Positions 2,961-62,749 of a stretch of DNA of 64,000 bases are shown piece by piece. A model generated the notes under the pieces. That model did no database searches and had not been told where the DNA came from. It worked only from the letters and a program-made list of their open reading frames with translations. How positions within the stretch are numbered: position 1 is the first letter of the stretch; each line of letters begins with the position of its first letter. The stretch is from positions 35,774,001 to 35,838,000 of the forward strand of contig NC_083292.1 in NCBI RefSeq assembly GCF_963506605.1, given 5' to 3'. Both the position numbers and the translations under genes were made by a program. This DNA comes from Zootoca vivipara (Eukaryota).

Positions 2961-4524
2961 CTCCCTCCCAGACTCTTTTTTCCAATGAGCTTGTGATACT
3001 ACTGTTATTTTTACCTTTACACTTTTGAGAAACTACCATTTGTTGCCGTGCTTCACAACTCTCTAGGCATCCACAACCAACAATAAAATCCATTCCCCCA
3101 AAATCCATTTACTCCATCAGTCAAAGGAACTGCTTCAAGCTTCTGCCTATATTTACTTTTGAAGTCAGTCATTTTAGCAAAGTCTGGTGAGGAGAGAGCT
3201 GCTATTCTTGAATCCATCTCTTTCTGTATCTGCTTCATCACAAACTGAATTTGCTCCCTGAATATTAGACAAGGACTCCACCTCAGCGGAAAACAGTCCC
3301 CAAGTATGCCTACAGCAGCTTTTACCTTTTGACTCCTAGTGACAGTGTAAACCTTCTCTCCTGTTCCCAGTACATTCTGCCTAAGAATTTTGGCTCATCT
3401 TTCCCTCTCCAATAAATCTTTGCCTCAGACACTGGGAGCTAATCTGGATGTTGTGAGGCAACATCTTTGTGGAAGTATCTAGATCTTCTCTTAATAAAGT
3501 GATTCCTGTACCTGTGTCTAGAGATGCCCAGTATGTGCTGTTATTCATTAAAACTTCCTCCATTAACTCAGTGTCAAAGTTTGCAGCTTTCTCAAACCTC
3601 ATTTTACAGAGTTTAACCTCTTGGGAGGGCTTTGGGGGAGATGTCTACAGCTTTTGCCATTTTAACTGGGGAGCTAGGGCACTAGGTGTTACCGACCTGA
3701 CTTTCCACCGTTCCAGAAGATGTGGCGATTGCCACTAATTTGGACGGCTTTAAATGCAGATTACAAATCAATAAATGAAGTCAAGGTTTAAATGTGCTTA
3801 ATTTTTTTTTTTAACTCGTGTATGCAATAATTTAAAACTGTATCAAAATACAGTATCTGACTGAGAGGCTGGGTAATCCTGCACCATTTGACTACATTAT
3901 CTCCCATCAAAAAATATGTTATTGTCCAAAGTCTTGTAACATATTGATTACAAAAGCTACATTGCACAATACATTCCACACGATGTACATATGCAAATGT
4001 TGCAAAACTACAAAAGATTATCCAGCTATTATGACTGTTGCTCCCTGAATAAATAATGGTTTGAGGCACTCTGAAAGGGGACCCAGCACTTGTTTTGAAA
4101 AAGGGGGAAATGATAATTCTCTCAAGGCGAATGTACCTTATTCTAACCACATAGAACTAAACCATTCAGGGGGCCAGAGAGAAAGATGTCCTGCAAATGC
4201 ACTGATTTTAGTTTGGCCAAAAACTGCTTCAGACACCTAGCTATGCGGAACTGAGGCTCTACATTTAAAAATCAAGACAAACAGGTGATCAGAATGCAGA
4301 ACAAGCTTTATTGAAAAGGTCAAAGAAAAAGCATTGACATTTTAAAAGGGGCAAAGAAGACAATCGGTGTAGAAGGATCTTTTTCTTCTGGACTCTAAAG
4401 CAAAGAATGGAGGATGAATTCCAGGAGTGATTGCTTGAATCCAGCTCTTCTGAACCATGGCCAATACAGCTGTGTCAAGCTCCGTGGATATCAGTTCAGG
4501 ATATACTTCTCGGGTTTAATTGGC

Positions 4525-5055
4525 CTATGCACAGATGCTACCACGACGCCCAAACTTCCTTCCAAGGAGTGCCCTCCTCCCAGAGCCCAAACCATAGCCC
4601 CAGCCCCCAGAGCTTCCAAGGAGGCCTGACCCATAGCCCAAGCCCCCAAATCCATAGCCTCCTACTACCCCAGAGCCACCAACAGCACATGGAGTGTTGC
4701 CTCCCACAGCCACAGGCTCACAGCTGGCAGAGAGGATGGGCCCTGGGATGGTCACAACGGAGGCAGGTGGCTGGATCACGACTTCTGCTGGTGGGATCTG
4801 GTTGACGGGTTTAGGGATGATCCCATCTAGGATGCCAAGATTGCTTGCTCTTTCAGCACCTCCATATCCATAGCCCAGGCCTCCAAATCCGAAGCCCTGA
4901 CCTCCCCATCCATAGCCGAGACCTCCCAATCCAGAGCCGAGACCTCCAAATCCAGAGCCGAGACCACCATAGCCAAGACCTCCTGCTGATCCAAACCCAA
5001 CAGTGGGGGTGGAGGCCCAGGATGGGACAGCACAGGATGGACCACAGTCAACCAT
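4525..5055 (-). CDS. Corneous beta-protein (beta-keratin), Gly-rich, gene 1 (176 aa)
   Basis: MVDCGPSCAVPS N-terminus, GGLG[SY]G repeats, beta-core VNQIPPAEVVIQPPASVVTIPGPILSASCEPVAV, basic C-terminus RRGSICA; acceptor tttcag 18 nt before ATG; AATAAA on minus strand at 4307-4312. Confidence 0.95.
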   Translation of the reverse strand: MVDCGPSCAVPSWASTPTVGFGSAGGLGYGGLGSGFGGLGSGLGGLGYGWGGQGFGFGGLGYGYGGAERASNLGILDGIIPKPVNQIPPAEVVIQPPASVVTIPGPILSASCEPVAVGGNTPCAVGGSGVVGGYGFGGLGYGSGLLGSSGGWGYGLGSGRRALLGRKFGRRGSICA

Positions 5056-5912
5056 TGTTGGATGGAGGTGAGTCTGAAACCAAAAACACCAAGGGACAAA
5101 ATTAGCACAGGGGACATCACTTCAATGGACAGTGGGGAGAATATTTCAGACATAATGATCCTGAGGTGTTAGGATATTTTTCCCATTCCTGGTTCACTAA
5201 ACTCAAACCATCTTCCTTTCTCCATGACTGAAAATCAGCTGTCTTTGATAATTCTGAAAACATTAAGCCCTCATGCCTGAATCCTTTTTTGTTCTCTGCT
5301 TTTGTTACTACAGCCCTTCTCTTCATTGTGGATCCCAAATCCAATCCCTGGTAATTTCAGGATGGTCTAGCAATATCCCCTGCTTCAAGGCTTGTAGAAC
5401 AACAGCCAATCTGAGTAGATAAAACTGAACTAGGGGTTCCAGTGGTCTGTCATGGTATAGGACAACTCCCTATGCTCATTCGTGTAGGTTATTTGTTTGG
5501 AACCATGAAGATTAGAACCTTACTTTAATTTTATGGGGAGGACAATTGTTCAGGGGCCGAACATGTGATTTTCATGCAGAACATCCCAAGTTCATTTCCT
5601 GGGATCTGCAGATTGAGCTGGTAAAGATTCTCTTCTTGAAACTCTGGAGAACTACAGCTGGTCAGGGTAGACAAAACTGAGCTAGATAGACTAACACTCT
5701 CAGTATCAGGCAGGTAAATACTTGATTTCATAAGGTACATATAGAAAAGAAGCCAGCCAACAACTTAAGAGTGTAAGGTTCCTGGTGGAAGATCTACCCA
5801 ATTCACAGAGTAATAGAATTTTAGCTTTCTCTTGGAGTTCAGTTACCTGAACCCTCTGGCCACTGCAAGAATCATTCAAATATAACATCATATTTGCGCA
5901 CACTTGACTTAC

Positions 5913-5999
5913 CAAAGTCTCAGAGGAGTAGAAGTGAAGTGAAGGAGATGAAGCCAAAGGAAGCTGTTGGAAGATCTCAGCTAAAGGAGACCTTTTATA
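5913..5999 (-). promoter_or_regulatory. Gene 1 TATA box and non-coding exon 1 (intron 5074-5912, 839 nt)
   Basis: TATAAAA at 5999-5993; donor G|GTAAGT at 5912; matches the known two-exon CBP/EDC architecture. Confidence 0.8.
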
Positions 6000-6387
6000 C
6001 CATTTCATCTACATCTGCTGGTGGTTCCACATCCAGCTTGGATACGCCTCCTTTCCCCTCAGGCTTTAATTAGTAAGCAATTTCTGGAATGCATCATGGC
6101 CCTAATTAAGAAACGAGGCAAAAGTGTTAAGTGTTTTCTCAGTACCTCACTCTCTTCATAGTCATTCTTCCGCAAGACAAAGTTAATAGAAGCTTTTATG
6201 TTCCTCCTGGCAGGCGGATCAAAAGGTGCTTTGTCCCCATTTTTTTCAAAATAGTTGTTGATTTTCTCAGAAGTCTAATTGACCTTTATATCCAGGATTT
6301 TAGTTAGTCATTCTGTGCGCAACACATAGCAGTTTTTGTTTTTGTTTTAACCTCCGCTGTTGGAGGTAAGATTGGGGGAGAAATTTG

Positions 6388-6955
6388 ATCCAGGTTGCAT
6401 TTTCTCGCTTGGACTACTGCAATGCGCTCTACGTTGGGCTACCTTTGAAGGTGACCCGGAAACTACAATTAATCCAGAATGCGGCAGCTAGACTGGTGAC
6501 TGGGAGCAGCCGCCAAGACCACACAACCCCGGTCTTGAAATACCTGCATTGGCTCCCAGTACGTTTCCGAGCACAATTCAAAGTGTTGGTGCTGACCTTT
6601 AAAGCCGTAAACGGCCTCGGTCCAGTATACCTGAAGGAGCATCTCCACCTCCATCGTTCTGCCCGGACACTGAGGTCCAGGGCTGAGGGCCTTCTGGCGG
6701 TTCCCTCGCTGTGAGAAGCCAAGTTACAGGGAACCAGGCAGAGGGCCTTCTCGGTAGTGGCACGCACCCTGGAGAACGCCCTCCCACCAGATGTCAAAAA
6801 GAAAAATAACTACCAGACTTTTAGAGGACATCTGAAGGCAGCCCTGTTTAGGGAGGCTTTTAATGTTTAATCGATTATTTTATTTTATTTTTCTGTTGGA
6901 AGCCGCCCAGAATGGCTGGGGATACCCAGCCAGATGGGCGGGGTATAAATAATAA

Positions 6956-6998
<43 letters not shown>
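6388..6998 (+). mobile_element. L2 LINE 3' fragment with (ATT)n tail
   Basis: SRLDYCNALY..LQLIQNAAARL..LHWLPV..FKVLVL; 3' end gggcggggtataaat(att)n; paralog at 24195-24817. Confidence 0.85.
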
Positions 6999-6999
<1 letters not shown>

Positions 7000-7843
7000 C
7001 ATTATGAAACGGTATAGCAATTGAAGCAGTGTAGTCCTATGAACCCACACTTTCATGAATATTTCCATGTCGTTCTGCAGCCAGGTGATGTGTACAAATT
7101 TGCCCATAAGAATGGACATACTGTACTAAGTGAAAATAACATACAAAAAATGCATTATAATCGAGAAAATTGTTTTTTCGGGAAAGTGTTGTTGTTATGC
7201 TAAGTTCGCGCTAAGTTCCCATAGACATCTGGTTGGTCATTGAGAACAAGGCTCTTCCAGTCTTCAATGATGCAAACGTATCATATACCGAGGTATAGAT
7301 AAGTGTATGCAATAAAACAAGAAAGAGTATGAGAATTTCCACAATTATTTGGGAATTCTTTTTAAAGAAGATATTTGAAGAAATAAAAGGTTAATATAGT
7401 GCCAGCTGTTTTCGAAGAACCAGGGATTTAAGAACATAAAAAGGGTTGACTGGATCAGACTAAGGGCCCATCTTATCCAGTATTCTGTTATCACACATGT
7501 CTATGGAAAGCTCACCGTCATGGCCTGAATTCAACAGCAGTGATTTCCAGCAATAGGTATACAAAAGCGTGCTGACAGTAGTGCTAGAAGATAGTCATCA
7601 TGGCTCATAACCATTGGTTCCCTTATTCTCCATGAATTCACACAGTTCTAAAAAAGAATCCTTCTGGATCAGGCTAAAGGTGGCCCATTAAGCCCAGCAT
7701 CCTATTCTCCCAATGGCCAACCAATGGGAAGTCTGCAAACAAGATCTGAATGCAAAAGCACAGTCACCACCTGAGATTCCCCACAACTGGTATTCAGAGG
7801 CTTACTGTCTCTGATAGTGGAAATAGAACATGCATACAGTGTT

Positions 7844-8185
7844 GGGACATGGGTGGCGCTGTGGGTTAAACCACAGAGCCTAGGGCTTGCTGATCAGAAG
7901 GTTGGTGGTTCGAATCTCTGCGACGGGATGAGCTCCCGTTGCTCGGACCCTACTCCTGCCAACCTAGCAGTTCCAAAGTGCAAGTAGATAAATAGGTACT
8001 GCTCCGGCGGGAAGGTAAACAGCGTTTCTGTGTGCTGCTCTGGTTCGCCAGAAGCAGCTTTGTCATGCTGGCCACATGACCTGGAAGCTGTACGCCGGCT
8101 CATTCAGCCAATAACGTGAGATGACCGATGCAACCCCTGAGTCGATCACGACTGGACCTAATGGTCAGGGGTCCCTTTACCTTTA
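7844..8185 (+). mobile_element. Sauria SINE
   Basis: tRNA-like head gggtggcgctgtgggttaaacc...ggttcgaatc, tail ggggtccctttaccttt, flanking repeat acagtgtt; paralog 25657-25987. Confidence 0.85.
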
Positions 8186-8652
8186 CAGTGTTGGAAGCTC
8201 AGATATAGAAGCTAGGTGACATATGGCTCCTTAAACCAGGGGTACAGTTGGCAAAATGGAATGCCTAGTTGCCATTTTGGGGCCAGATGGCTCAAAAGTT
8301 GTATTTTTCAATATACAACCTTTTGGTTCCTGAAGTTGGTCATTGAGAACAGAATGAAGTTCATCCTGATTGTGCAGATAAAATATAACAGAATTCGACA
8401 GGGTGTGCAGCTAGCTAGTGTATGAAAACAGCCCAGATCCAAGGATCCCCAGGCAGGCACCTCCAGATGGTGGAGACATCAGGCACCATCCTGGTGCCTG
8501 GGCATCTGCACTTGGTCACAAGTGGCCAATAGCCAGGTGCAAAATGAGCCTGGCGCCTGGTGAATTTCAAACACTGCTATCATAGCTATTAGCCATTCAT
8601 AGCTCAGCTTCTGGCATTGTTACAAAATGACAAGAAGGGGGTCTGAATAGGG

Positions 8653-9026
8653 CAGCGTTTCTCAACCGCTGTTCCGTGGCACACTAGTGTGCCGCGAGAC
8701 GCTGGCTGCTGTGCCGTGGCGTGCGGCGACGAGAAGGGCGATTTGCATTGTCACGTGCCTGGCGGCCGCCAATATACAGCACTGACCCGCCGGAAAGCAA
8801 TATTTCTCCTCCTCTTTCCCAAAGCTCAGTGCAAACGAGCCTGGCGGCCGCCAATATACGACACTGACCCGCCGGAAAGCAATATTTGGCAAGTGTTTCT
8901 TACAGTCATAATTATAATATAGGGCGGCACAGAGTTAAATTTTTTAACTTTTTAAATGGTGGTGTGCCTCGTGATTTTTTTCACGGAACAAGTGTGCCGT
9001 GGCCCAAAAAAGGTTGAGAAACACTG
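8653..9026. mobile_element. hAT (Charlie-like) MITE
   Basis: TIR cagcgtttctcaacc/ggttgagaaacactg; 8-bp TSD gaataggg (8645-8652, 9027-9034). Confidence 0.88.
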
Positions 9027-9457
9027 GAATAGGGAACTGTGCACACTTTTCCATGAATGCGAACCTCAGCAATATCTGAGGTTCCACAGATTCCCCATTC
9101 CTGGATTGGATGTAGTTGCTTTAGGATTATTTTAAGCAGTGCAGAGGTAGCCAAAAGGATCCCCCCTAGTTTTTTGTTTTTGTTTTTGTGGATTTCACTC
9201 ACATAATTCTTTACTATTGACCATGCTGGCTGGGGCTAATGGGAGTGCAGTGATATCTTGTCAGAACCATATACACTACTATGACAGTAGGGAACAAGGA
9301 CCAAGGCGAGTCTAGGAATGGGAGAGAAATTCAATTCAATTGACCCTTAAAGAAAAACAAAATTTATTCACCCTTTTTGAAACAATGTGCAAATTGAAGC
9401 ATTGCTATGCTACAAAATCTGTAGCTGTCTGCATTTCCCAGCGCAGTTGTCCAAGTA

Positions 9458-10485
9458 CAGTGGAATCTTGGTTCTCAAACGTAATCCGTTCGACTCCCGA
9501 AACTGTTGGAAAACCAAGGTGTGGCTTCCGATTGGCTGCAGGAGCTTCCAGAGTGTCTCGCCAGAGTGGTGCATGCTCTGGTTATCTCCTGCTTGGACTA
9601 CTGCAATGCGCTCTACGTGGGGCTACCTTTGAAGGTGACCCGGAAACTACAACTAACCCAGAATGCGGCAGCTAGATTGGAGATTGGGAGCGGCCGCCGA
9701 GGCCACATAACACCGGTCTTGAAAGACCTACATTGGCTCCCAGAACATTTCCGAGCACAGTTCAAATTGTTGGTGCTGACCTTTAGAGCCCTAAATGGCC
9801 TCGGTCCAGTATACCTGAAGGAGCATCTCCACCCCATCGTTCTGCCCGGACACTGAGGTCCAGTACCGAGAGCCTTCTGGTGGTTCCCTCATTGCGAGAA
9901 GCCAAGTTGCAGGGAACCAGGCAGAGGGCCTTCTGGGTGGTGGCGCCCGCCCTGTTGAACACCCTCCCATCAGATGTCAAAGAGAAAAACAGCTACCAGA
10001 TTTTTAGAAGGCATCTGAAGGCAGCCCTGTTTAGGGAGGCTTTTAATGTTTAATAGATTATTTTATTTCATTTTTCTGTTGGAAGCCGCCCAGAGTGGCT
10101 GGGGAAACCCAGCCAGATGGGCGGGATATAAAAAGGTAAAGGGACCCCTGACCATTAGGTCCAGTCGTGACCGACTCTGGGGTTGCACGCTCATCTCGCA
10201 TTATTGGCCGAGGGAGCCGGCGTATAGCTTCCAGGTCATGTGGCCAGCATGACAAAGCCGCTCCTGGCAAACCAGAGCAGCACATGGAAACGCCGTTTAC
10301 CTTCCCGCTGTAGCGGTTCCTATTTATCTACTTGCATTTTGACGTGCTTTCGAACTGCTAGGTTGGCAGGAGCTGGGACCAAGCAACGGGAGCTCACCCC
10401 GTCACAGGGATTCGAACCGCCGACCTTCTGATCAGCAAGCCCTAGGCTCAGTGGTTTAACCACAGCGCCACCTGGGCGGGATATA

Positions 10486-10535
<50 letters not shown>

Positions 10536-10647
10536 GCTGCGTTGGGCATAAAACATTCAAAAACCAGAACACTTACTTCCAGGTTTTTTGTTGTTTGGGA
10601 GCTGATTTGTTTGACAACTAAGTCATTTGAGAACCAAGGTAGCACTG
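9458..10647. mobile_element. Nested stack: Tc1/mariner (Tigger-like) MITE > L2 3' fragment (about 9550-10535) > Sauria SINE (10131-10472, minus)
   Basis: TA-flanked TIRs cagtgg..ttggttctcaaa / tttgagaaccaag..cactg; L2 peptide SCLDYCNALY; SINE TSD tgggcgggatata (10118-10130, 10473-10485). Confidence 0.8.
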
Positions 10648-10894
10648 TAATGGGTAGCAAAATGAATACATTCGAGTAAACTATAATGCCTACATATCTT
10701 AAAGAAAAGAAGGCACAACAATGTATGATATTAAAGAGAATTGCACTTCAGAAATGTGTAATTCAATACAATTGTGTGCTGATGGATTTTCATGAGGACA
10801 CTGATAATGGAGATCTCTGGGAATCCGGTATGCATATGCAAAATCTTTGATGATGTCCTAGAGTCCCTTAAGTTGATGAAAGAGCTTTGAAGAT

Positions 10895-11997
10895 TTTCAC
10901 CGGCAGAAGCTAAAACCCAAAAAAGACTGAACATGTCAACAAACTGGTTGAGATATAGGGATATCCTAATGGAAGACGGTGATCAGATAAAGCTAAAACC
11001 ATATGAGGTGTTGAAGAGTAAAGTAAGGGATTGGTTTCAATATTATCAAATTAATGAAATGTTTAAAATGGATAAAAAAGTTGGTTTTCAAATGCAAAAG
11101 TCTAAATTAGAAACAGAATTGTTATATTCCAAAGGTAAAAATTTACCAAAAATGTATAATGTATTCTTGGAATGGCATACAAAGGACAAGCAAACAAAAC
11201 ATGTGATGATAAAATGGGCAAATGATGTGGGGCACAACATCATGGTGGAGGAGTGGGAAAGGTTATGGAAGCAAAATATGAAATTTACCGCGAGAAAATT
11301 TAATGAAAATGATTTATAGATGGTATCTGACTCCAGTAAAGTTAGCTAAGATTTATCATAAACAAGGCAATAAGTGCTGGAAATGTAAAAAGCAAGAAGG
11401 TACTTTCTTCCACATGTGGTGGACATGCCCCCAAGTGAGAGACTTCTGGGAAAAGATTTATAATGAACTGAAAAAAGTGCTGAAAAGCACTTTTGTTAAG
11501 GAACCAGAGGCCTTCTTACTTGGGATAACGGGGGATGATATCCCTAAGAAAGATGTTGTTTTCTTTTTATATGCCACAACAGCAGCAAGAATATTACTGG
11601 CAAAGAATTGGAAGAATGAAGAATTACCAACTGTGGATGAATGGCAGAAGAAATTGATAGAATATATGGAACTGTCTGAGTTGACGGGGAGACTTCGGGA
11701 TCGGAGTGAAGAAGCAGCGGAAGAAGACTGGAAGAAATTTAAAATTTATTTGAAAAATAAGCATGTAATAGATTGATTTAATGGTAGTGAGGGAGATACA
11801 AGGAAGTTGTAGATAATACAAGGGTTTGAAAATAAGCATTGTTAGAAGATATTATAATTAAGAAGTAAGATATAGACTGAGTGTTTAAAAGATAAGATAT
11901 AATAGATATAGTAAAATGATAATATTGAAGCAAATTTAGAGTTGATATAAGATTTAGAACTTACTAAATATGAAATGTAAAGAAGAATTAAAAAAAA
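10895..11997 (+). mobile_element. 5'-truncated L1 with TSD
   Basis: ORF2 C-terminus with CCHC (CWKC..FFHMWWTC); A-tail; TSD gaaagagcttt[g/c]aagat; empty site in paralog at about 26732. Confidence 0.9.
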
Positions 11998-12251
11998 GAA
12001 AGAGCTTTCAAGATCTCTATCTGCTCCCTCTGGGTGCATCTGGTTTCAAGCATCAGACTGGAAGTCAGCAAAATTAAAAGGAAGGGAGGGGGAATGGTGT
12101 TGAGACAATTAGTCTTTCATTATTGCAACCACTTAATGTTGTGACCTTTTGTGCTTAGTGAAGTAATTTTGCACATTAAATTGCCAACAACGAAATAAAA
12201 GATTAGTCAGAAGAGGCAGTCCCTTGGTCACTGGGGCGGCTTGCAGAACTG

Positions 12252-12333
12252 TATAAAAGCTCGAAGTTCTCCCAGTTTCTCCAACAGCTTCACCTGACTC
12301 TCCTGTCTTCACCACATCTCACCAAAGCAGCAG
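12252..12333 (+). promoter_or_regulatory. Gene 2 TATA box and non-coding exon 1 (intron 12334-15872)
   Basis: TATAAAA 12252-12258; donor CAG|GTAAGC at 12334. Confidence 0.8.
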
Positions 12334-12829
12334 GTAAGCCCATTTCCTTGGGGTGATATTTCCAAGCTTGTCGTAGGTTCACATTGAAGTAGGGCCAGAT
12401 GGCTCTTCCAATGAGAGCAGGGATGGGTATCCTGTGGTCCTTGCAATGTTGCTTCCATCATCCTTGTCCATTGGGAATGCTGGCTGAGAGGACTTGCGAT
12501 CCTGCAACAACTGCAGGGCCACAGCTTCCCCATCCCTCCTTCACACCCTGCAGGTTTATTAAATAAGGTAACCCTGATTCTTTGGACGTATGTCTAGAAC
12601 CGGGAAGGAGAACCAGGGGCTTTGCAGATGTTTATGAACTTCAGCTCCTATATTCCATGACCATTGTCTATGGTGGCTGAGGCAGATGGGAGCTAAAGTC
12701 TGGTTGTGCCACTTAGCAAACATAGCAGGAGAAGATCTCCACGGTAATGTCATCTATGCTTGTTAAATATAATTGTGATATCTAGAAGGTGGCACCAGCT
12801 TTCTATTCTCTCTCTTCCTAAATGTCATT

Positions 12830-12830
<1 letters not shown>

Positions 12831-12887
<57 letters not shown>

Positions 12888-12888
12888 C
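12831..12888. repeat. (AC)n microsatellite in gene 2 intron (paralog 27527-27563)
   Basis: Direct reading. Confidence 0.9.
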
Positions 12889-13050
12889 TTCTGCCTTTTA
12901 GAGCACAAGCACAAAACTCTGCATTTTACTGATAAGTAAACCTGATTGTATTCACTAATGCTTAGTCCCAGATAAATAGATAAAGGATTGCTGCTTTATT
13001 TTTTCAAATTCACCCCCACCTGGATCGATAATACTTGACTGTGGTCCAGC

Positions 13051-13140
13051 CATAGCTGCCAAGTTATCCCTTTTTTAAAGGGATTTTCCCTTATGCTGAA
13101 TAGGCTTCCTCGCGAGAAAAGGGAAAACTTGGCAGCTATG
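13051..13140. mobile_element. 90-bp hAT MITE
   Basis: TIR catagctgccaagtt/aacttggcagctatg; 8-bp TSD ggtccagc; empty site in gene 4 intron at about 27719. Confidence 0.9.
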
Positions 13141-13408
13141 GGTCCAGCCTGTCAAAAAATGTTTTTGATAGAATTGTTGACATAGCATGCTTTTTTATTT
13201 AGAGCACGATCATGGAAGCAGCCTAATAAGGTATGTGAGTAGTTTCTTGTTTTTCTACAGCGTCTAGCACAGGGGTGTAGTTCTCACTCAGTAGTTATAG
13301 TGAGGTTCCTATAGTCTTGTAACCCTTCTCTGTCGTTCATGCCGGCTGGATCTGATGGGAGTTGAAGTCTGCAACATCAGAAAAGACTACACACTGACTC
13401 CCCCGTTA

Positions 13409-15694
13409 TCTATATATATAAAAATGTAAAAATCGTGAAACTGCGTTTTTTAAGTTTCTCCATAACCGCTTGACCGACCGTCCTGAAATTTTGACACAAC
13501 GTTCCAGGCCACTCCCAGAGCGTTGTTGGGGGCAAAAAAACTCAAATCGCACACCTGTGCAGGTACAGACCTGCTTTTCCACCAACTCAAACAGCGCCCT
13601 CAAGTGGCGTAATACCCTCCTCCACCCCCTCCCTTCCTGTGAAATCTAAGCCACACCCACAAACCAAATGACATCATCATCAACCAAGCAACTGAAATCA
13701 CCAAGGCTGCCATTGTCACAGGACGCAGCACGGCCTCTGTTTATGTAGGCCCCCACTAGGCCCGGGGGGGGGGGATAACCCACAGCAACGCACATGGGGG
13801 CACGGCAAGGGGTTTTTACTTTACAATTTAGCAGCAATACCCCCCCCCCAAATAAATACCATCCTTCAAAACGTCATGAGATATGCTGGTCACGGAGGTG
13901 GGGGGAGAAACAGAATAGATCATGGATCGGGACACGTGGGGCCAGTCACAGGGATTAGCCACAACAATGCACCACACCCACAAACCTGTAAAACAGGGGG
14001 GCTCTGAGGCTCAGGGGGATCTGAAGGGGGTCTATTACCAGACAACCCACAGAGTCAGGCCAGGGCCAAGGAATGGAGATACAGGGCGGAGGCCTCGGGT
14101 CACATTTAAATACTAGTCCAAGCCAAGGCCTCGCTTCTACTTTACAGCCTAAAGACTAGGCCTAGGCTCCATTTTACAGACTAGGCCTCAACTCTATAAC
14201 CCTTTAAATACTATCCCGAATGGAGCCCTGGGGGGAACCCTGGGGGGAGGAGGAGCCCAAATAGGTCATGGGCTGACGTAGGGTGGGGGGAGCAACTGTC
14301 CAACAGCCACTAAAACAGCCATTCCACCCCAAGCCCAACCAAAGCCTGTCCCGGTGGCTGCATTAATAAACGCCTGGCAGCATTAGGCAGTCATTCATCA
14401 TTTCTCCTAACACGCACTTGGGGGCACAGCGAGGGGTTTCCGCTTCATAATTCAGTGACCGTTGTGTCACATGCGAGGCTACGGCGGCCATTTTAAGTAA
14501 GGGCAGTCGTGCCCCTTTTAGCCAAGGCTTTACCGTGTTTCTCCGAAAATAAGACACTGTCTTATATTTATTATTCCTAAAAAAAACCCACATTGGCTTA
14601 TTTTCATGAGATATCTTATTTTTTATTACGCGTCCAGCCTTGCCTCTTCCTTGGGGCCCTCCAGAACTGCGCCTATCACTATGTCTTATTTTTTGGGTAT
14701 GGCTTATATTGCGCAAATGCGTAGAAATCCTGCTATGGCTTATTTTATGGGTATGTCTTATTTTAGGAGAAACAACTGATTGTAAGCCTCTGTGTCTTTT
14801 TTAAAAAAACAACAACCGTGCACTTTTTCTCCCCAGATATTTGCAGTGGCCACTCCCACCCCCGATTTACAATCCCCTACCTTCCCCTTGCCACTTCCTG
14901 GGTTTTTTTATGGAACTGAACAACTCAGGTACTTCAGAACGCGCCTTCTGCTGCCAGGCCCTTGCAGGGCCAGACAGAGGCCTGGGCCAGGTAGATAAGA
15001 TAATGTGGCCCTGTTTTTAACCCTTTTGTTACTTTTTTTCATTTTACTGATTGTGAATATGCAGACCGAGACTCCCTTTTGATTTGGAGGCCCGCGCCAA
15101 GTGGCCCATATGACCCCCCTCCATCTATCTGGGCCTGTCTGTTGCTACGGGGCTATGGGGCTTCGCTATTTGACACCCCCCCCCTCAGGATTTTTAAAGT
15201 AGATCTCTGCCTCCCAGGGCACATCATCACCCCCGATCCTTAATCTAAATATAAAGAAATGCTCGTGATGTGTGCGCAGGGGCCAATGTATGGAGATACA
15301 GGGGGGAGGGGACAACAGAGGGCTCAGACAAAAGTAAATACTGGGAAATGGAACCCAGAAACTGACAGCTCCTTCTCCAAGGCTGGGGGCCAATGTAGGA
15401 AGCTACCGGGGGTAGGGGCCAACACTCCCCAGGGACAACAGAGGGCTCAGACAGAAGTGCATGCTGGGAAATAAAACCCAGAACCTAACAGTTCCTTCTC
15501 CAAGGGTGGGGGCCAAAGTATGGAGATACATGGGGGAGGGGCCAACACTCCCCAGGGACAACAGAGGAAAGGGTATCCTACCGAAACACAGGGATGAGCC
15601 GGGGTGGAGGGAGGAGGGGCAGGATACGTCATGGATCGGGACAGGGTGGGGATCACAGGAAAGAACCACAGCAATGCGTGGCCGGGTCAGCTAG
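13409..15694 (+). mobile_element. Non-autonomous Helitron (2286 bp) in gene 2 intron
   Basis: 5' TC(tatatatataaa), 3' CTAG, inserted between A and T with no TSD, subterminal imperfect hairpin ccacagcaatgcgtgg; empty site in gene 4 intron (about 27986). Confidence 0.88.
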
Positions 15695-15890
15695 TACCTT
15701 ATATCTGAGCTTTTATAATTATTTGGTCTTCTTTGGTTTTCATGTTCCATATTCATCTCAGTTGTTCAATTTCATGCTTTAGATTCTTCTTCAGCCATGG
15801 TTGACTGTGGTCCATTCCCATTGAAGTGATGTACCCCACACTTATTTTCTCCCTTGGTGTTTTTGGTTTCAGACTCACCTCCACCCAACA

Positions 15891-16442
15891 ATGGTAGACT
15901 GTGGTCCATCCTGTGCTGTCCCATCCTGTGCCTCCACCCCCACTGTTGGGTTTGGCTCAGCAGGAGGTCTTGGCTACGGTGGTCTTGGCTATGGACTGGG
16001 AGGTCTCGGCTCTGGATTGGGAGGTCTCGGCTCTGGATGGGGAGGTCAGGGCTTCGGATTTGGAGGACTGGGCTATGGATTTGGAGGACTGGGCTATGGA
16101 TATGGAGGTGCTGAAAGAGCAAGCAATCTTGGCATCCTAGATGGGATCATCCCTAAACCCGTCAACCAGATCCCACCAGCAGAAGTCGTGATCCAGCCAC
16201 CTGCCTCCGTTGTGACCATCCCAGGGCCCATCCTGTCTGCCAGCTGTGAGCCTGTGGCTGTTGGAGGCAACACTCCATGTGCTGTTGGTGGCTCTGGGGT
16301 AGTAGGAGGCTATGGATTTGGGGGCTTGGGCTATGGGTCTGGCCTCCTTGGAAGCTCTGGGGCCTGGGGCTATGGTTTGGGCTCTGGGAGGAGGGCACTC
16401 CTTGGAAGGAAGTTTGGGCGTCGTGGTAGCATCTGTGCATAG
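15891..16442 (+). CDS. Corneous beta-protein gene 2 (183 aa)
   Basis: Same core box and Gly repeats; acceptor AG 15871-15872; AATAAA 16655-16660. Confidence 0.95.
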   Translation: MVDCGPSCAVPSCASTPTVGFGSAGGLGYGGLGYGLGGLGSGLGGLGSGWGGQGFGFGGLGYGFGGLGYGYGGAERASNLGILDGIIPKPVNQIPPAEVVIQPPASVVTIPGPILSASCEPVAVGGNTPCAVGGSGVVGGYGFGGLGYGSGLLGSSGAWGYGLGSGRRALLGRKFGRRGSICA

Positions 16443-18384
16443 GCCAATTAAACCCGAGAAGTATATCCTGAACTGATATCCACGGAGCTTGATACAGCTG
16501 TATTGGCCATGGTTCAGAAGAGCTGAATTCAAGCAATCACTCCTGGAATTCATCCTTCATTCTTTGCTTTAGAGTCCAGAAGAAAAAGATCTTTCTACAC
16601 CGATTGTCTTCTTTGCCCCTTATAAAATTTCAATGCTTTTTCTTTGACCTTTTCAATAAAGCTTGTTCTGCATTCTGATCACCTGTTTGTCTTGATTTTT
16701 AAATGTAAAGCCTCAGTTCCACATAGCAAGGTGTCTGAAGCAGTTTTTGGCCAAACTAAAATCAGTGCATTTGCAGGACATCTTTGTCTCTGGCCCCCTG
16801 AATGGTTTAGTTCCATGTGGTTAGAATAAGGTACATTCGCCTTGAGAGAATTATCATTTCCCCCTTTTTCAAAACAAGTGCTGGGTCCCCTTTCAGAGTG
16901 CCTCAAACCATTATTTATTCAGAGAGCAACAGTCATAATAGCTGGATAATCTTTTGTAGTTTTGCAAAATTTGCATATGTACATCGTGTGGAATGTATTG
17001 CGGAATGTAGCTTTTGTAATCAATATGTTACAAGACTTTGGACAATAACATATTTTTTGATGGGAGATAATGTAGTCAAATGGTGCAGGATTACCCAGCC
17101 TCTCAGTCAGATACTGTATTTTGATACAGTTTTAAATTATTGCATACACGAGTTAAAAAAAAATTAAGCACATTTAAACCTTGTCTTCATTTATTGATTT
17201 GTAATCTAAATTTAAAGCCGTCCAAATTAGTGGAAATCGCCACATCTTCTGGAAATGTGGAAAGTCAGGTTGGTAACACCTAGTGCCCTAGCTCCCCAGT
17301 TAAAATGGCAAAGGCTGTAGAGATCTCCCCCAAAGCCCTCCCAAAAGGTTAAAGTCTGTAAAATGAGGTTTGAGAAAGCAGCAAACGTTGACACTGAGTT
17401 AATGGCGGAAGTTTTAATGAATAACAGCACATACTGGGCATCTCTAGACACAGGTACAGGAATCACTTTATTAAGAGAAGATCTAGATACTTCCACAAAG
17501 ATGTTGCCTCACAAAACAACAAAGGTCACAAAGGGCATCCAGATTAGCTCCCAGTGTCTGAGGCCGCCTGGGACAGATCTGACTCCCACTAGCCTAATAG
17601 GGGAGCCAGTAGGTAAGGACCCTCTGAGAGAGGTCGGGGCAGGGGCCCACACCGTTGACCTCATCCCTCCGATGCTCCCCGAGACTCATGCATGGCCCTG
17701 GCCCCTAACGGGGATAAACCTACAAACATGTAGAGCCCCGGGATTCCTTTAACGGAATACCCCTAAAGGCATCAGCAACCATGAGGGAAAGGCCCAGCCA
17801 AAATCCATACCCCTCCACCATCCAATTTGAAGCAATGCCTAACCGCCAACCTTACAAGTTGTGACTTATTGCTACGCAGTAGGAAGGCGCCCCCCCCCCC
17901 CGGCACCAGCCAATCAGCCAAGTGGGCAAATTCCTACCAGGCCCCTGATCCAAAACAGGTGACCCCATGACAGGCACAGCAAGGTCAATGCAAAGAACAT
18001 CTAAAATTAGTGGAGGGCAGGCAGGAGATTTGTTGCGAGCAGCAAAGTGGAACTAAAAGCTGCTCGCTAAGCACATATAAGGCTAAGACTGTCAATCTAT
18101 CATTTGCTACATGCTAAACTCCCCAGCAACAGCCAACCAATTGGTGTGCCAACCAACCACACATGTGGCTATCCAAACTGAACCGCCCAACCAACCCTGG
18201 GATGTCTTGTTAACCCTTCCGCAACCCATGTTCTCCTTTAAGGGGAGAACCTGCTCTGTCCTGAGATGCTGGCTGCATCGGTCATTTCCTTTCCCTCACT
18301 TGTTATCTCGCAGCAGCCATCTCAGCCGTCAGGCCTTGCGGGACCCTGCTCCCCCCTGGCGGCTCATTAGAAGAGCTGGTCGAG

Positions 18385-24763: not shown

Positions 24764-24818
<55 letters not shown>

Positions 24819-26324: not shown

Positions 26325-26365
<41 letters not shown>

Positions 26366-27522: not shown

Positions 27523-27566
<44 letters not shown>

Positions 27567-47510: not shown

Positions 47511-48022
47511 TTCTCATTCCTACCCTGCTAGAAAATGGTTTATTGTGTTCCAGCCTGTTAAAAATTGTTTTTGATAGTATTGTAGACATAGCATGCTTTT
47601 TTAAAAAAAAATAAAAAAAATTCAGAACACCATCACTGAATCATCCTGCTAAGGTATAGGAGCATTTTCTTGTTTTTCTACAGCGTCTACCACAGGGGTG
47701 TTGTTCTCACTCTGTAGTTATAGCAAGGTTCCTATAGTCTCATAACCCTTCTATGTTGTCCATGCTGGCTGGGTCTGATGGGAGTTGAAGTCTGCAACAT
47801 CAGAAAAGACTACACACTGACTAGCCCCTCATGTATCCGAGCTTTTATAATTATTTGGTCCTCTTTGGTTTTCATGCTCCATATTCAACTCATTTCTTCA
47901 ACTGTATACTTTAGATTCTTCTTCTGCCATGGTTGACTGTGGTCCATCCCCATTGAAGTGATGTATCCCACACTTATTTTCTCCCTTGGTGTTTTTGCTT
48001 TCAGACTCACCTCCATCCAGCA

Positions 48023-48532: not shown

Positions 48533-48898
48533 GCCAATTAATCCCAAGAAGAATATCCTGAACTGATATCCACGGAGCTTGATGCAGATCCTTTGACGTT
48601 GCGTCAGAAGAGCTGAATCTAAATAACCATGGCTGAAAAATCACACAAACACCCTTTGTTTTAAAGTATAGAAGAATAAGATCCTTCCACACTGTGTGCC
48701 TTCCTTGCTTCTTGTACAACTTTTTGTGCTATTTCCTTGAACTTTTCAGTAAAGCTTCTTCATTCTTTTCATGTCTCTGTGTGTGTTGGTTTTTGAACCT
48801 CAGGTATGTGAAGCACCCTTTGGCCATTTTAAAACTGGGTGTGTGTGGGAAGCCCTCCACTCTAGCACCCTGAATGCTTTACTTATATGTTGAAATAA

Positions 48899-48940
<42 letters not shown>

Positions 48941-49844
48941 TTATTTTTATTTATACCCCGCCCTCCCCAGTCAAAGCCAGGCTCAGGGCGGCTAATGCCA
49001 ATAAAATTACACTAAGACATAAAAGAAAGAAAACCAATTAATTAAAATACAGATATTAAAATTTAAAATGCAGCCTCATTTTAAACACAGGGGTCAGACT
49101 GAATCCAACCCAAAGGCCAGGCGGAACAGCTCTGTCTTGCAGGAAAGATAACAAATCCTGCAGGGCCCTGGTCTCCTGTGAAAGAGCATTCCACCAAGTC
49201 GGGGCCAGTACTGAAAAGGCCCTGGCCCTAGTCGAGACCAATCTAACCACCTTATGGCTCAGAATCTTCAGAATGTTGTTATTTATGGACCTTAAGGTCC
49301 TCTGCGGGGCATACCAGGAGAGGCGGTCCCGTAGGTACGAGGGTCCTAATTAAGATAATGTCATCTTGATAAAATTCACATTTCCCACTTTTTCAACACG
49401 AGTGCAGTGTCTTCCTTCAGTGTCACGAATGGTTAATTCAGGGAAAGAACTGGGGCTGAATGCCAGTTTGGGTGATTCTTAATGGACCAAGAATGAGCTT
49501 TGATTTTGCCTGTGGGCCAGCTTGATACAAGAAAAAGCCCCTCATTACTCTGTGCTGTCATTTGGGGGAGGTGGGTTGTAATTAGTGCGTCTGATTAGGT
49601 AGCCAGATTGCTCATAACATCCAGACGGGTCCTATGGTTCAGGAAGAGTAATTGGCAATGCAATTCTTTTGGCAATAAATTTTACTGGGATTTTTTATGA
49701 CTGCAATACAAAAGGCTGGCTAGAGTCCAGAAACTTCAGGAGAGCTACAGCTTCCACTCCCCAGACCTAGAAGCATAAATGGGATTTACAAATATTGTCC
49801 TAATGGCTGCAAGACCTGTGGCATGGGGGGAAAAACATTTTTTT

Positions 49845-58710: not shown

Positions 58711-58764
<54 letters not shown>

Positions 58765-60067
58765 TGTTATAAAGCAGCTAATAAAAATGAGGGGGAAAAA
58801 CATCAGGAAAGGAGGGGTGGGAATTCAAGAAGAAACTTTGTATATTAAAATGTATATGATGATAAATGCTTTGAAATATAAATAAAATTGTGTGTTTGTG
58901 TGTGTGTGTCTTTTGAGTTGAAAAGGATCCCAAGGGTGTTCTAGTCCAACGACTTGCATTGCAGGTATCTGAGCTAAAGCATCCATGGCAGATGGCCATC
59001 CAACCTCTGCTTAAAAACCTCCAAGGACGGAGAGTCCACAACCTCCCAAGGGAGACCTTTCCACTGTTGAACAGCTTTCAGAATCACACCCCCCCCCCCC
59101 GATGTTTAGTCAGAATCTCATTTCTTGTAACTTGAAGCCATTGGTCCCTACTTGTGGACTTCCCAATAGGACAACTAAGCCGAGTCTTTGAGTAAATGGA
59201 CCTTTGGCCTTATCAAGAAGGCCTGCTCTAATGTCATGGTAAGGGCAGTGTATAATCCCAGTAAAAATTATTGCCAAAAAAATTGCATTGCCAATTACTC
59301 TTCCTGAACCATAGGACCTGTCCGGATGTTATGAGCAATCTGGCTACCTAAGCAGACGCACTAATTACAACCCACCTCCCCCAAATGACAGCACAGAGTA
59401 ATGAGGGGCTTTTTCTTGTATCAAGCTGGCCCACAGGCAAAATCAAAGCTCATTCTTGGCCCATTAAGAATCACCCAAACTTGCATTCAGCCCCAGTTTC
59501 AATGCAAGTTCTTTCCCTAAATTAACCATTTGTGACACTGAAGGAGAACACTGCACTCGTGTTGAAAAAGTGGGAAATGTGAATTTTATCAAGATGACTT
59601 TATCTTAATTAGGACCCTCGTACCTACTGGACCGCCTCTCCTGTTAGGCCCCGCGGAGGACCTTAAGGTCCACAAATAACAACATTCTGGAGATTCTGAG
59701 CCATAAGGTGGTTAGATTGGTCTCAACTAGGGCCAGGGCCTTTTCAGTACTGGCCCCAACTTGGTGGAATGCTCTTTCACAGGAGACCAGGGCCCTGTGG
59801 GATTTGTCATCTTTATGCAGGGCCTGCAAGACCCTGCAAGTTCCGCCTGGCCTTTGGGTTGGATTCAGTCTGACCCCTGTGTTTTCCTCCTTCATGGTTT
59901 GGATTTATGGACTACTTAAAATGAGGCTGCATTTAAATTTTTAAATTTTAATATTGTATTTTAATCTGTATTTTAATTAATTGTTTTCTTTTCTTTTATA
60001 TCTTCTTGTAATTTTATTGGCATTAGCCGCCCTGAGCCCGGTTTTGACTGGGGACAGTGGGGTATAA

Positions 60068-60100
<33 letters not shown>

Positions 60101-60465
60101 TTATTTCCACATATAAGTAAAGCATTCAGGGTGCTAGAATGGAGGGCTTCCCACACATACACCAGTTTTAATATGGCCAAAGGGTGCTTCACATACCTGA
60201 GGTTCAAAAACCAACACAGAGAGACATTAAAAGAATGAAGAAGCTTTACTGAAAAGTTCAAGGAAATAGCACAAAAAGTTGTACAAGAAGCAAGGAAGAC
60301 ACACAGTGTGGAAGGATCTTATTCTTCTATACTTTAAAATAAAGGGTGTTTGTGTGATTTTTCAGCCATGGTTATTTAGATTCAGCTCTTCTGACGCAAC
60401 GTCAAATGATCTGTATCAAGCTCCGTGGATATCAGTTCAGGATATTCTTCTTGGGATTAATTGAC

Positions 60466-60975
60466 CTATGCACAGATGCTACCACGACGCCCAAACCTCC
60501 TTCCAAGGAGTGCCCCCTTCCCGTAGCCCAAACCATAGCCCCAGCCCCCAGAGCTTCCAAGGAGGCCAGACCCATAGCCCCACCCTCCATAGCCATAACC
60601 CCCTACGATCCCGGAACCACCAACAGCACATGGAGTGTTGCCTCCAACAGCCACAGGCTCACAGCTGGCAGAGAGGATGGGCCCTGGGATGGTCACAACG
60701 GAGGCAGGTGGCTGGATCACGACCTCTGCTGGTGGGATCTGGTTGACGCATGATGGGGCAACTCCTGCCAGGACTCCAAGGTTGGCTGCTCTTTCAGCAC
60801 CTCCATATCCATAGCCCAGGCCTCCAAATCCGAAGCCCTGACCTCCCCATCCATAGCCGAGACCTCCCCATCCAGAGCCGAGACCACCATAGCCAAGACC
60901 TCCTGCTGAGCCAAACCCAACAGTGGGGGTGGAAGCGCAGGATGGGACAGCACAGGATGGACCACAGTCAACCAT
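60466..60975 (-). CDS. Corneous beta-protein gene 7 (169 aa)
   Basis: True start MVDCG at 60975; acceptor 60994-60995; near-identical to gene 6; AGTAAA on minus strand 60245-60250. Confidence 0.95.
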   Translation of the reverse strand: MVDCGPSCAVPSCASTPTVGFGSAGGLGYGGLGSGWGGLGYGWGGQGFGFGGLGYGYGGAERAANLGVLAGVAPSCVNQIPPAEVVIQPPASVVTIPGPILSASCEPVAVGGNTPCAVGGSGIVGGYGYGGWGYGSGLLGSSGGWGYGLGYGKGALLGRRFGRRGSICA

Positions 60976-61957
60976 TGTTGGATGGAGGTGAGTCTGAAAC
61001 CAAAAAACACCAAGGGACAAAATAAGTGTGGGATACATCACTTCAATGGGGAGTGCAAGCAATCTGTCAGAGGTATTATGATATTTTCCCCATCCCCATT
61101 TTCCCCAACTTAAACCATCTTCCTTTCTCCTTGATTGAAAAACAGCTGTTTTTGGTTATTCAACAAACATTAAGCACTAATTCATGCATTCTGTATTGTC
61201 CACCTCAGTCTTTCTCTCCATTGTGGGTCCTAAATCTTATCCCTCATGGTTCCAGGAAGGTGAGGGGACGTCCCTTAGCCTGAAGTCCTTTAGAGCAGCT
61301 TCTAGTCAGTGTAGACAATACTGAACTAGGGGTCCAGTGGTCTGACATGGTACGGGTCAACTCCATATACTTCTACTTGAGTCAGCACTTTACACAGAGC
61401 CTTGAAGTCTAGAGTTTTTCTTTGTTTCTATGGGAAGGGTCATAGGGTCATTGCTCAGTGGCAGGATGCATGGTTTTTATGCAGAAATCCCCAGGTTCTG
61501 TCCCAGGAATCTGCAGGTTGAGCTGGTAAGTGCTCCCTCCTTGAAGCTTTGGAGAGTCATATCTGGTCATTTTAAATGATACCAATCTGGATGGACCAAG
61601 AGTCTAACTCAGTATAAGACAGCTAAATACGTGATTTCATAAGATACATACAGAAAAGAAGCCAGCCAACAACATGAAGGATTAAGTTTCCTGGTCCCTT
61701 TGGCTCACCCATAAAATATTTGTGTGGGCTCTTCCCCCCCCCCCCAAAGTTGATTACCATTGCCATACAAAAGGTGCCGGCGTGTCACATTTTGTGATCA
61801 ATTATGTGGGGCAGTGATCACTTGGGCCCCCCTATTTTAATCAATTTGGCACCCCTGGGGAGAGCTATCCATCTCACAGAATAATAGAGTTGGAATTCAG
61901 TTTGTTGAATCCTCAGATCAGTGCAAGAATCATGCAAATGCAGAATCCCAGCATAGA

Positions 61958-62086
61958 TTCACAGAATGGTAGAGTTGAAAGGGACCCAGAGGGTAATCTA
62001 GCTCAACCAATCGAGGAATCTTTTTGCCCAGTGTAGGGCTCAAATCCATGACCCTGAGGTTAAGAGCCTCATGCTCTACTGAGTGA
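61958..62086 (-). mobile_element. tRNA-Lys(CTT)-derived SINE with CR1-like tail, in gene 7 intron
   Basis: Minus strand gtagagcatgaggctcttaacctcagggtc..gagccc..gggc followed by ggtccctttcaactctaccattctgtga. Confidence 0.65.
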
Positions 62087-62099
62087 ACATGTGACTTAC

Positions 62100-62186
62100 C
62101 AAAGTCTCGGAGGAGTAGAAATGGACAGAAGGAGATCAAGTTCAGGGAAGCTGTTGAGATATCTCAGCCCAGGGAACCCTTTTATA
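62100..62186 (-). promoter_or_regulatory. Gene 7 TATA box and non-coding exon 1 (intron 60994-62099)
   Basis: TATAAAA 62186-62180; donor GTAAGT at 62099. Confidence 0.8.
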
Positions 62187-62749
62187 CTCTTTTGACTGGA
62201 TCCCCTGATGGCCCCACAGCTGGCTTGGATACACCCCCTGTTCCTCTGAAGCTGGAATTAGCAAATAATTTGTGATATGCCTCAGGCCCGCTAATTATTT
62301 TAATAATAATGAAAAATGAGACAAAAGTGTTAGCATTTCCTCAACTTCCCACAACGCGTCTCTCCCACTCTGACACGTTTGATCTTGGCTTCTTAAAACT
62401 TCTGCAAAACAAAGTTGAAAGAAATGAGTGTATGTTCCTTTTCTGACAGATCAACAGATATGTTGTCCCCATTTTCCCCCTCTTCAAAATAGCTAAAGTA
62501 GCCGTGGGTGTTCAGAGTGGGCTACTTGACTTTCATATCCAGGATTTCAGTTGATCTTTCCAGCCACAACACATTGCCATCGTTCTCTACCTCCACTGCA
62601 GTGGGAACCATTGGGAAGAGGGCTATTGAAATCACATCCTTCTTGTGGGTTTTTCATTGAATCTGGTTGGGCACAGTGGGGACAGGATGCTGGTCTAGAT
62701 GCGGTTTTTCCTTTTTATTTATTTTTCTGATTATTATTTTTTAAAAGAG

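What the first reader, a model, noticed from the sequence alone, without database searches (positions are those of the whole stretch)
4300..62190. Three modules (promoter/intron, pre-core segment, C-terminus/3'UTR) assort independently across seven genes
Seen: promoter/intron type follows strand (type M in genes 1, 3, 5, 7; type P in genes 2, 4, 6). The pre-core segment follows position (ASNLGILDGIIPKPVNQ in genes 1-4; AANLGVLAGVAPSC[VI]NQ in genes 5-7). The C-terminus follows neither (SSGxWGYGLG..RRGSIC in genes 1, 2, 4, 6, 7; SNFGGFLG..QFGLRRGG in genes 3 and 5). The N-terminal PSC/PSW site is also scattered (W in 1, 3, 6; C in 2, 4, 5, 7). No single tree fits all four patterns. Inference: gene conversion or inversion between oppositely oriented coding exons shuffles protein and UTR modules between two promoter types, generating combinatorial diversity in scale proteins.
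Basis: partly seen in the sequence, partly recalled or inferred. Interest (0 to 1): 0.7.

Follow-up and report, generated by a model that had tools for sequence, protein, structure and literature searches.

The report
Lizard scale genes copy neighbours' parts
Seven neighbouring scale-protein (corneous beta-protein) genes of a lizard are patchworks whose promoters, middles and tails have different family trees, likely because oppositely facing genes copied stretches from one another one-way, which put one gene type's tail behind the other type's promoter.

Summary
Observation confirmed; interpretation partly. The seven genes are lacertid corneous beta-protein (CBP) genes in head-to-head pairs of one M-promoter and one P-promoter gene. 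Promoter, pre-core and tail give three conflicting splits (1357|246, 41 sites; 1234|567, 17; 12467|35, 46), and 41 of 42 cross-segment tree tests reject. Core synonymous divergence between M and P genes is 7.6% although their introns are unalignable. But the modules are not independent. Genes 1/2 and 3/4 are one duplicated unit; tail X never sits on a P promoter (0 of 6); tail Y subtypes follow position; W/C is one codon. Best reading: tandem pair duplication plus one-way copying between inverted paralogues. Genes 1 and 7 took P-type tails with 1.2-2.6 kb of flank. Genes 2, 4, 6 and 8 carry a pasted M-type acceptor behind a relic P acceptor and ATG. No reciprocal inversion product is seen. Contigs from other individuals fit the assembly, and RNA-guessed contigs fit a spliced gene 1. 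The mechanism is known (silkmoth chorion), yet conversion was reported rare or undetected in bird and turtle beta-keratins. The scan noted a like case 26 kb downstream. Adaptive value is untested.

The parts
4525..5055 (-). g1 CBP coding exon: M promoter, pre-core A, Y1 tail; mosaic, g3-like up to about 4740 and g4-like from about 4705 on
5074..5999 (-). g1 intron (5912-5074), non-coding exon 1 (ends 5913) and TATA (5999), type M
1903..4705 (-). P-type tail, 3' UTR and 2.6 kb flank of g1, likely copied from g4 (1.5% and 2.0% divergent from g4's flank, 2.7% from g2's); ends at a CR1-like fragment
12252..15872 (+). g2 TATA (12252), exon 1 (ends 12333) and 3.5-kb intron, type P
15778..15818 (+). 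relic P-type acceptor (AG ends 15782) and relic ATG (15797) with 6 further codons, joined at 15818 to an M-type intron end
15891..16442 (+). g2 CBP coding exon: P promoter, pre-core A, Y1 tail
22292..22843 (-). g3 CBP coding exon: M promoter, pre-core A, X tail
22862..23787 (-). g3 intron (23700-22862), exon 1 (ends 23701) and TATA (23787), type M; this splice is shown by a contig of run X13
26986..28164 (+). g4 TATA (26986), exon 1 (ends 27067) and intron, type P
28070..28110 (+). relic P acceptor (AG ends 28074), relic ATG (28089), junction 28110
28183..28734 (+). g4 CBP coding exon: P promoter, pre-core A, Y1 tail; likely donor of g1's tail and flank (to 30516)
35490..36026 (-). g5 CBP coding exon: M promoter (TATA 37859, intron 37772-36045), pre-core B, X tail
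47910..47950 (+). relic P acceptor (AG ends 47914), relic ATG (47929), junction 47950 in g6
48023..48532 (+). g6 CBP coding exon: P promoter (TATA 46717, intron 46799-48004), pre-core B, Y2 tail
47947..49692 (+). left arm of the g6/g7 inverted repeat (acceptor, coding exon, 1.16 kb flank)
59254..61052 (-). right arm: g7 acceptor, coding exon and Y2 tail with 1.2 kb flank, likely copied from g6
60466..60975 (-). g7 CBP coding exon: M promoter (TATA 62186, intron 62099-60994), pre-core B, Y2 tail
4612..29807 (.). two copies of the head-to-head unit (g1/g2 at 4612-17514; g3/g4 at 22394-29807), 89-98% identical in blocks

Best explanation
These seven corneous beta-protein genes lie in tandemly repeated head-to-head pairs of an M-promoter and a P-promoter gene, and their patchwork was likely made by repeated one-way copying (non-allelic gene conversion or template switching) between oppositely oriented copies, primed in the shared coding exon. 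Shown: the pair layout, the conflicting segment trees, near-zero synonymous divergence of the core between genes with unalignable introns, switch points inside the core of g1 (4740-4705) and at or before 60634-60616 in g7, and a duplicated start in g2/4/6/8. The result is mainly homogenisation, with occasional new promoter-protein pairings.
For: Segment identities and trees. Site splits and permutation tests. Core synonymous difference is 7.6% over 12 M-P pairs in the window and 0% for g0/g7 and g5/g10, against 37-68% to g21, g22 and g24, so these sites are free to drift. Breakpoint tables: g1 45:2 then 3:92, g7 10:14 then 1:119. The relic matches the native P acceptor of g14 at 19-20 of 24 sites and the M acceptor at 6 of 24. 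A second start (17-18 of 18) occurs at -94 in 4 of 25 genes, all P; the other 21 reach at most 12 of 18. g4 exon 1 joined to the relic reads like the N-terminus annotated for a Podarcis lilfordi relative, P0088. Outgroup proteins pair the P head with the Y tail (P0001, P0088-90) and the M head with X-type tails (P0004, P0093). The pattern repeats down the array: in 6 of 8 head-to-head pairs outside the g9-g14 types and g22/23, CDS identity is 94-98% with intron interiors at 46-54%; g3/4 and g5/6 give 88% and 83%. Run X7 (another study) shows contig depths 54, 102, 83-112 and 142 for X flank, M upstream, P upstream and Y1 flank, fitting 1:2:2:3 (the tool warns depth is no copy number). Run X13 holds M exon 1 spliced to a head, and a core-tail-UTR contig, whose mismatch counts equal g1's (2 vs g3, 2 vs g6, 11 vs g4).
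Against: One haplotype only; no contig bridges promoter to tail in any run. The X13 match is by mismatch counts plus two listed sites, not letter by letter; the head count also fits g6 against g3, and the run's RNA status is a guess. The distal ends of the two tail captures have no homology to a recipient flank, so they are not classical two-ended conversion. Divergences in the g1-g4 block are all about 1.5-2.7%, so one complex event fits as well as stepwise events. g10/g13 are not pure: the first half of their tail is Y2-like. No donor was found for pre-core A. P+X absence rests on 6 related genes, not 6 independent events.
Confidence: 0.8

Rival explanations
1. The g1-g4 block arose in one replication-based event with three template switches, one through the inverted cores, giving a duplication with an inverted third copy of the Y1 flank (DUP-TRP/INV-DUP-like; pattern recalled, not looked up). 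This is a variant of one-way copying for that block only.
For: Copy pattern X 1, M 2, P 2, Y1 3 with one inverted; similar divergences of 1.5-2.7%.
Against: g1's flank is closer to g4 (16 of 1078) than g2 is to either (27 of 1069, 29 of 1068), suggesting a later step. It does not explain g7, the relic start or the array-wide core identity.
Confidence: 0.25
2. Reciprocal inversions between opposite-strand coding exons swapped tails or promoters, with later deletion of the reciprocal products.
For: 1.7-kb inverted repeats at 91-96% exist (g1/g2, g1/g4, g6/g7) and are possible substrates; g1 sits at the block edge, where a partner could have been lost.
Against: No P+X gene (0 of 6); all four pairs g1-g8 keep M on minus and P on plus; g6 and g7 both carry Y2, and three Y1 flanks serve two P promoters, which needs copying, not swapping. 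g9/g10 is flipped as a whole within a 47-kb inverted duplication.
Confidence: 0.07
3. The shuffling is adaptive: M and P promoters drive different skin layers or body regions, and selection keeps new promoter-tail pairings.
For: All seven reading frames are intact; X and Y tails differ in aromatic residues (Tyr 2, Phe 4 versus Tyr 3-5, Phe 1-2); pre-core A removes two cysteines (5 versus 7 in total); g1 appears spliced in run X13.
Against: No expression data by tissue; tails are the same length and both Gly/Arg-rich; most events make genes more alike.
Confidence: 0.15
4. Ordinary duplication and purifying selection on the core, without exchange.
For: The core protein is conserved across all 25 genes.
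Against: Synonymous sites, intron ends, UTRs and kilobases of flank are shared across promoter types; relic start.
Confidence: 0.02
5. The mixed genes are assembly chimeras.
For: Near-identical exons in inverted orientation are hard to assemble; no read-level bridge was obtained.
Against: g1's upstream differs from g3's at 33 of 1699 sites and its flank from g4's at 16 of 1078, so both are distinct copies. Three Y1 flanks on two P promoters force one M+Y1 gene on any path. X7 depths fit. Contigs matching g7's flank occur in two samples (3-4 differences versus 9 for g6).
Confidence: 0.03

Closest known systems
Corneous beta-proteins (beta-keratins) of the squamate epidermal differentiation complex, cluster 2 type (PMC7393497: one section and passages read; PMC11431283: first part, passages and supplement hits read)
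   Same: Pfam PF02422 core, one coding exon behind a non-coding exon and TATA box, long Gly-rich N-terminus, clustered. Closest named proteins are from Podarcis, Zootoca and Lacerta.
   Different: None of the 7 exact proteins is in the protein collection. PMC11431283 says only that conversion 'may have contributed' and lists 4 CBPs in its supplement.
Silkmoth chorion A/B gene pairs (PMC4639761, passages read)
   Same: Structural-protein genes in tandem head-to-head pairs, an inverted sub-block, and high rates of conversion; a cited title reports transfer between the HcA and HcB families (title only seen).
   Different: Hc pairs share a 330-nt promoter region; here the TATA boxes of a pair are 3.2-8.9 kb apart. 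Here both members share one core, so whole acceptor-exon-flank cassettes move between promoter types.
Bird and turtle beta-keratin arrays (PMC2894828, PMC3673632; passages read)
   Same: Same gene family; bird scale genes also alternate strands.
   Different: Those papers found conversion 'very rare' in birds and no GENECONV signal in painted turtle, using coding sequences. Here the signal is strong and shows best when introns and flanks are included.
Scaffoldin 1/2 and avian loricrin concerted evolution in the same gene complex (PMC7393497, PMC6447390; passages read)
   Same: Conversion proposed between neighbouring paralogues; Scfn1 and Scfn2 are oppositely oriented and keep different C-termini.
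   Different: Two-gene cases without reported promoter-tail chimeras or a relic start in the passages read.

Membership tests
Corneous beta-protein gene | beta-sheet core (Pfam PF02422) | tested here: met
   7 of 7 pass the cut-off of 25 bits, at 30.6-41.7
Corneous beta-protein gene | single coding exon after a non-coding exon with TATA box | tested here: met
   TATA and GT donor in all 7; M exon 1 splice seen in one contig; P exon 1 splice not seen
Corneous beta-protein gene | lies in the CBP cluster of the epidermal differentiation complex | tested here: inconclusive
   38 core matches within 0.41 Mb; flanking loricrin/EDYM genes not searched
Corneous beta-protein gene | expressed in epidermis | not testable with these tools
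   tissue of runs X13, X19, X20 is not on record
Non-allelic gene conversion | tracts more alike than their flanks, synonymous sites included | tested here: met
Non-allelic gene conversion | non-reciprocal transfer | tested here: met
   in this haplotype: 0 of 6 P genes with X tail; donors keep their tails
Non-allelic gene conversion | homology at both tract ends | tested here: not met
   met for internal head, pre-core and core tracts; not met for the g1 and g7 tail captures or the relic junction, which work like conversion but close by another route
Non-allelic gene conversion | event observed in a pedigree or as a segregating tract | not testable with these tools
   one assembly; contigs only
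Invertible (shufflon-like) switch | reciprocal products or both orientations present | tested here: not met
   no P+X gene, no flipped spacer in g1-g8; other haplotypes untested
Chorion-type paired array | tandem head-to-head pairs of two gene types | tested here: met
   g1-g20 alternate strictly; 30 strand switches in 37 steps over 38 cores
Chorion-type paired array | short shared bidirectional promoter | tested here: not met
   TATA-TATA distances 6.3, 3.2, 8.9 and 3.9 kb

The most novel reading that the evidence does not exclude
The alternating-strand CBP array is a standing promoter-by-protein exchange system: inverted cores keep overwriting whole acceptor-exon-tail cassettes under two old promoter classes with different skin domains, chimeras and inversions still segregate among living lizards, and the relic start in P genes is a splice-selected upstream ORF that tunes their output.
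Probability: 0.12. Interest if true: 0.68.

Novelty: new member of a known kind. Interest (0 to 1): 0.42.

Why it matters
Beta-keratin families were reported to convert rarely (birds) or not detectably (turtle), and CBP trees are built from the beta-core (PMC7393497). Here the core is the most overwritten part: it is identical between g0 and g7, 66 kb apart, with unrelated promoters. Core-based orthology and dating would mislead in such arrays, and promoters or introns should be used. The locus also shows how a structural protein can gain a new promoter without a new gene, and the relic start gives the direction of one event. It offers a small, testable system for how reptile scale proteins diversify.

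Tried and rejected
Lay of four runs on 46500-62500: swamped by transposon contigs; no bridge of g6 or g7. No RNA holder was listed for the g4 stretch. No cover of P exon 1 in three RNA-guessed contig sets, so acceptor choice in g2/4/6 stays open. X7's contig stops 5 nt past the g4 relic junction and does not bridge it. A match of g7's distal flank to g10/g13 looked like a left-over M flank but is only a CR1-like 3' end without unique neighbours: rejected. The match of g6's distal flank to g9 also hits g8 in reverse, so it is a repeat. A donor for pre-core A was sought in 25 array genes and 19 further stretches: none; g0 is only partly like it. No M-head + Y-tail protein among 103 homologues, but annotation misses this window's own genes, so lineage specificity is not shown. 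W/C as a module: rejected (one base); W also occurs with an X tail in Lacerta P0004. g4's three core changes partly resemble g19/g20: too short to call. Literature; two searches returned nothing, and no listed paper described this in a squamate CBP array. Most subscription papers are outside the library. No folding or complex job was run, as it would not bear on the question.
Full report
What is there. Six-frame search finds seven intact coding exons at the stated places, on alternating strands. All pass the Pfam keratin cut-off, and their closest named relatives are lacertid proteins. None of the seven exact sequences is in the protein collection. Each gene has a TATA box, a short non-coding exon, an intron of 0.8-3.5 kb and one coding exon, the layout described for CBP genes (PMC11431283). 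The window lies inside a larger array: 38 core matches in 0.41 Mb, with g1-g20 alternating strictly. I fetched the neighbouring 200 kb and number genes g0 to g24.

The observation. Promoter, pre-core and tail give three incompatible splits: 1357|246 (41 sites), 1234|567 (17 sites) and 12467|35 (25 coding and 21 UTR sites), out of 255 informative sites. Neighbouring sites are far more compatible than shuffled ones (P<=0.0002), and 12 of 21 gene pairs have a significant identical run (my own simplified versions of PHI and GENECONV, which rate variation can inflate). Segment trees of 13 genes reject each other in 41 of 42 AU tests. So no single tree fits.

Why the modules are not independent. Upstream comparison puts g1, 3, 5, 7, 10, 13 in type M and g2, 4, 6, 8, 9, 14 in type P. 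Each head-to-head pair holds one of each, so the repeated unit is a pair. The strand rule fails for g9/g10, which lie inverted in a 47-kb inverted duplication. g1/g2 and g3/g4 are two copies of one unit (33 of 1699 differences upstream of g1/g3), which accounts for the shared pre-core A. Six of eight combinations occur and both missing ones are P + X; over 12 genes X-type tails sit on 4 of 6 M genes and 0 of 6 P genes. The Y tail splits into Y1 (g1,2,4) and Y2 (g6,7) by position. W/C is one base.

Conversion rather than selection. In the 117-nt core, synonymous difference between M and P genes of the window is 7.6%, and it is zero for g0/g7 and g5/g10, while g21, g22 and g24 differ by 37-68%. 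The introns of the same pairs are at random level. The same holds for g11/12, g15/16, g17/18 and g19/20 (CDS 96-98%, intron 49-54%), whereas g9/10 and g13/14 stay at 76% and 85%. Intron ends and flanks beyond the polyA signals travel with the exon, so the copying is DNA-level, not through mRNA (inference).

Direction, first event. g2, 4, 6 and 8 carry a second copy of the first 18 coding bases 94 nt upstream of the ATG; none of the other 21 genes does. The 24 nt before this relic ATG match the acceptor of the unmixed P gene g14 at 19-20 positions and the M acceptor at 6. Read from g4's exon 1, the relic gives the same residues as the N-terminus annotated for a Podarcis relative (that record is a gene prediction). 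After seven codons the sequence switches to the last 71 nt before an M-type ATG. An M-type acceptor and head were therefore pasted into a P gene out of register, once, or once and then spread. If the relic acceptor is used, the mRNA would begin with a 10-codon upstream ORF; which acceptor is used is unknown.

Direction, tail captures. Outgroup proteins and g9/g14, g10/g13 pair P with Y and M with X-type ends. g1 follows g3 at 45 of 47 sites and then g4 at 92 of 95, switching at 4740-4705 inside the core. Its flank follows g4's for 2.6 kb and is closer to g4 (16 of 1078) than to its neighbour g2 (29 of 1068). g7 follows g6 at 119 of 120 sites after 60616, with mixed signal before, and shares 1.2 kb of flank (52 of 1139 differences), part of which matches the P flank of g9/g14. 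Donors keep their tails and no reciprocal product exists. The far ends of both tracts show no homology to a recipient flank, so these look like one-ended copying closed by end joining or a second template switch (inferred). For g1-g4 a single complex event remains possible.

Is it real? Both halves of g1 are distinct copies, and three Y1 flanks on two P promoters force an M+Y1 gene on any assembly path. In DNA-guessed run X7 from another study, contig depths were 54, 102, 83-112 and 142 for X flank, M upstream, P upstream and Y1 flank; the tool warns that this is no copy number, so it is supporting only. In RNA-guessed run X13, one contig joins M exon 1 (0 differences) to the acceptor at 22861, and another covers core, Y1 tail and UTR; their mismatch counts equal g1's. 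X19 and X20 Y1 contigs (8 and 2 differences from g4) match neither g1 nor g2 by count, so alleles vary. X20 also holds the X tail. No contig bridges a whole gene.

Against the known. The proteins are ordinary cluster-2 CBPs (PMC7393497). The process works like concerted evolution of silkmoth chorion pairs (PMC4639761), without their short shared promoter. Conversion was called very rare in bird beta-keratins (PMC2894828), was not detected by GENECONV in painted turtle (PMC3673632), and was only suggested for wall-lizard genes (PMC11431283). Nine searches listed no account of such chimeras in a squamate CBP array; the library lacks most subscription papers, and the tuatara paper's supplements were not read.

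Verdict. Real and well supported; a clear new instance of a known process with an unusually legible scar. Reciprocal inversion and independent assortment are not supported, and adaptive shuffling is untested. Interest 0.42.

Noticed in passing
window 39601-44166 (+): L1-like retrotransposon between g5 and g6 with a 306-aa first ORF and a 1212-aa second ORF bearing endonuclease and reverse transcriptase domains.
   Followed up: partly
window 51381-53313 (-) and 1165-1905 (+): CR1-like element with a reverse transcriptase ORF broken near 52020; a 96% identical 3' fragment marks the far end of g1's copied flank. Family name recalled.
   Followed up: partly
window 18490-20611 (+): L2-like reverse transcriptase element between g2 and g3; a related 3' fragment lies at the same place in both g6 and g7 flanks. 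Family name recalled.
   Followed up: partly
window 53990-54900: GC-rich stretch packed with nested inverted repeats (12 arm pairs, up to 158 nt, 81-97%) and three 116-nt direct copies; repeated in the genome by contig depth; no Pfam match. Unexplained.
   Followed up: partly
window 245-494: Hairpin with 120-nt arms, 96% complementary, 10-nt loop; possibly a miniature inverted-repeat element.
   Followed up: no
G000:C17 about 35846500-35893400 (window-relative 72540-119427): 47-kb inverted duplication at 94-97% holding g9-g14.
   Followed up: partly
G000:C17 40.35-40.54 Mb and 36.32-36.37 Mb: Further CBP-like genes 4.5 Mb and 0.3 Mb from the main array; would fit the rearranged gene complex reported for lacertids (PMC11431283). 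Identical-protein inverted pairs occur there too (L025/L026).
   Followed up: partly
window 60139 and 60172: Contigs of two samples carry g6-type letters at these two places of an otherwise g7-type flank: a segregating conversion tract or a contig artefact.
   Followed up: no
window 13405-15694: 2.3-kb stretch in g2's intron absent from g4's; mostly unique in the region.
   Followed up: no
window 2596-3432: About 830 nt of a retroelement present in g1's flank and missing from g4's; g2's flank follows g1's for about 10 more bases, so g4 likely lost it.
   Followed up: partly
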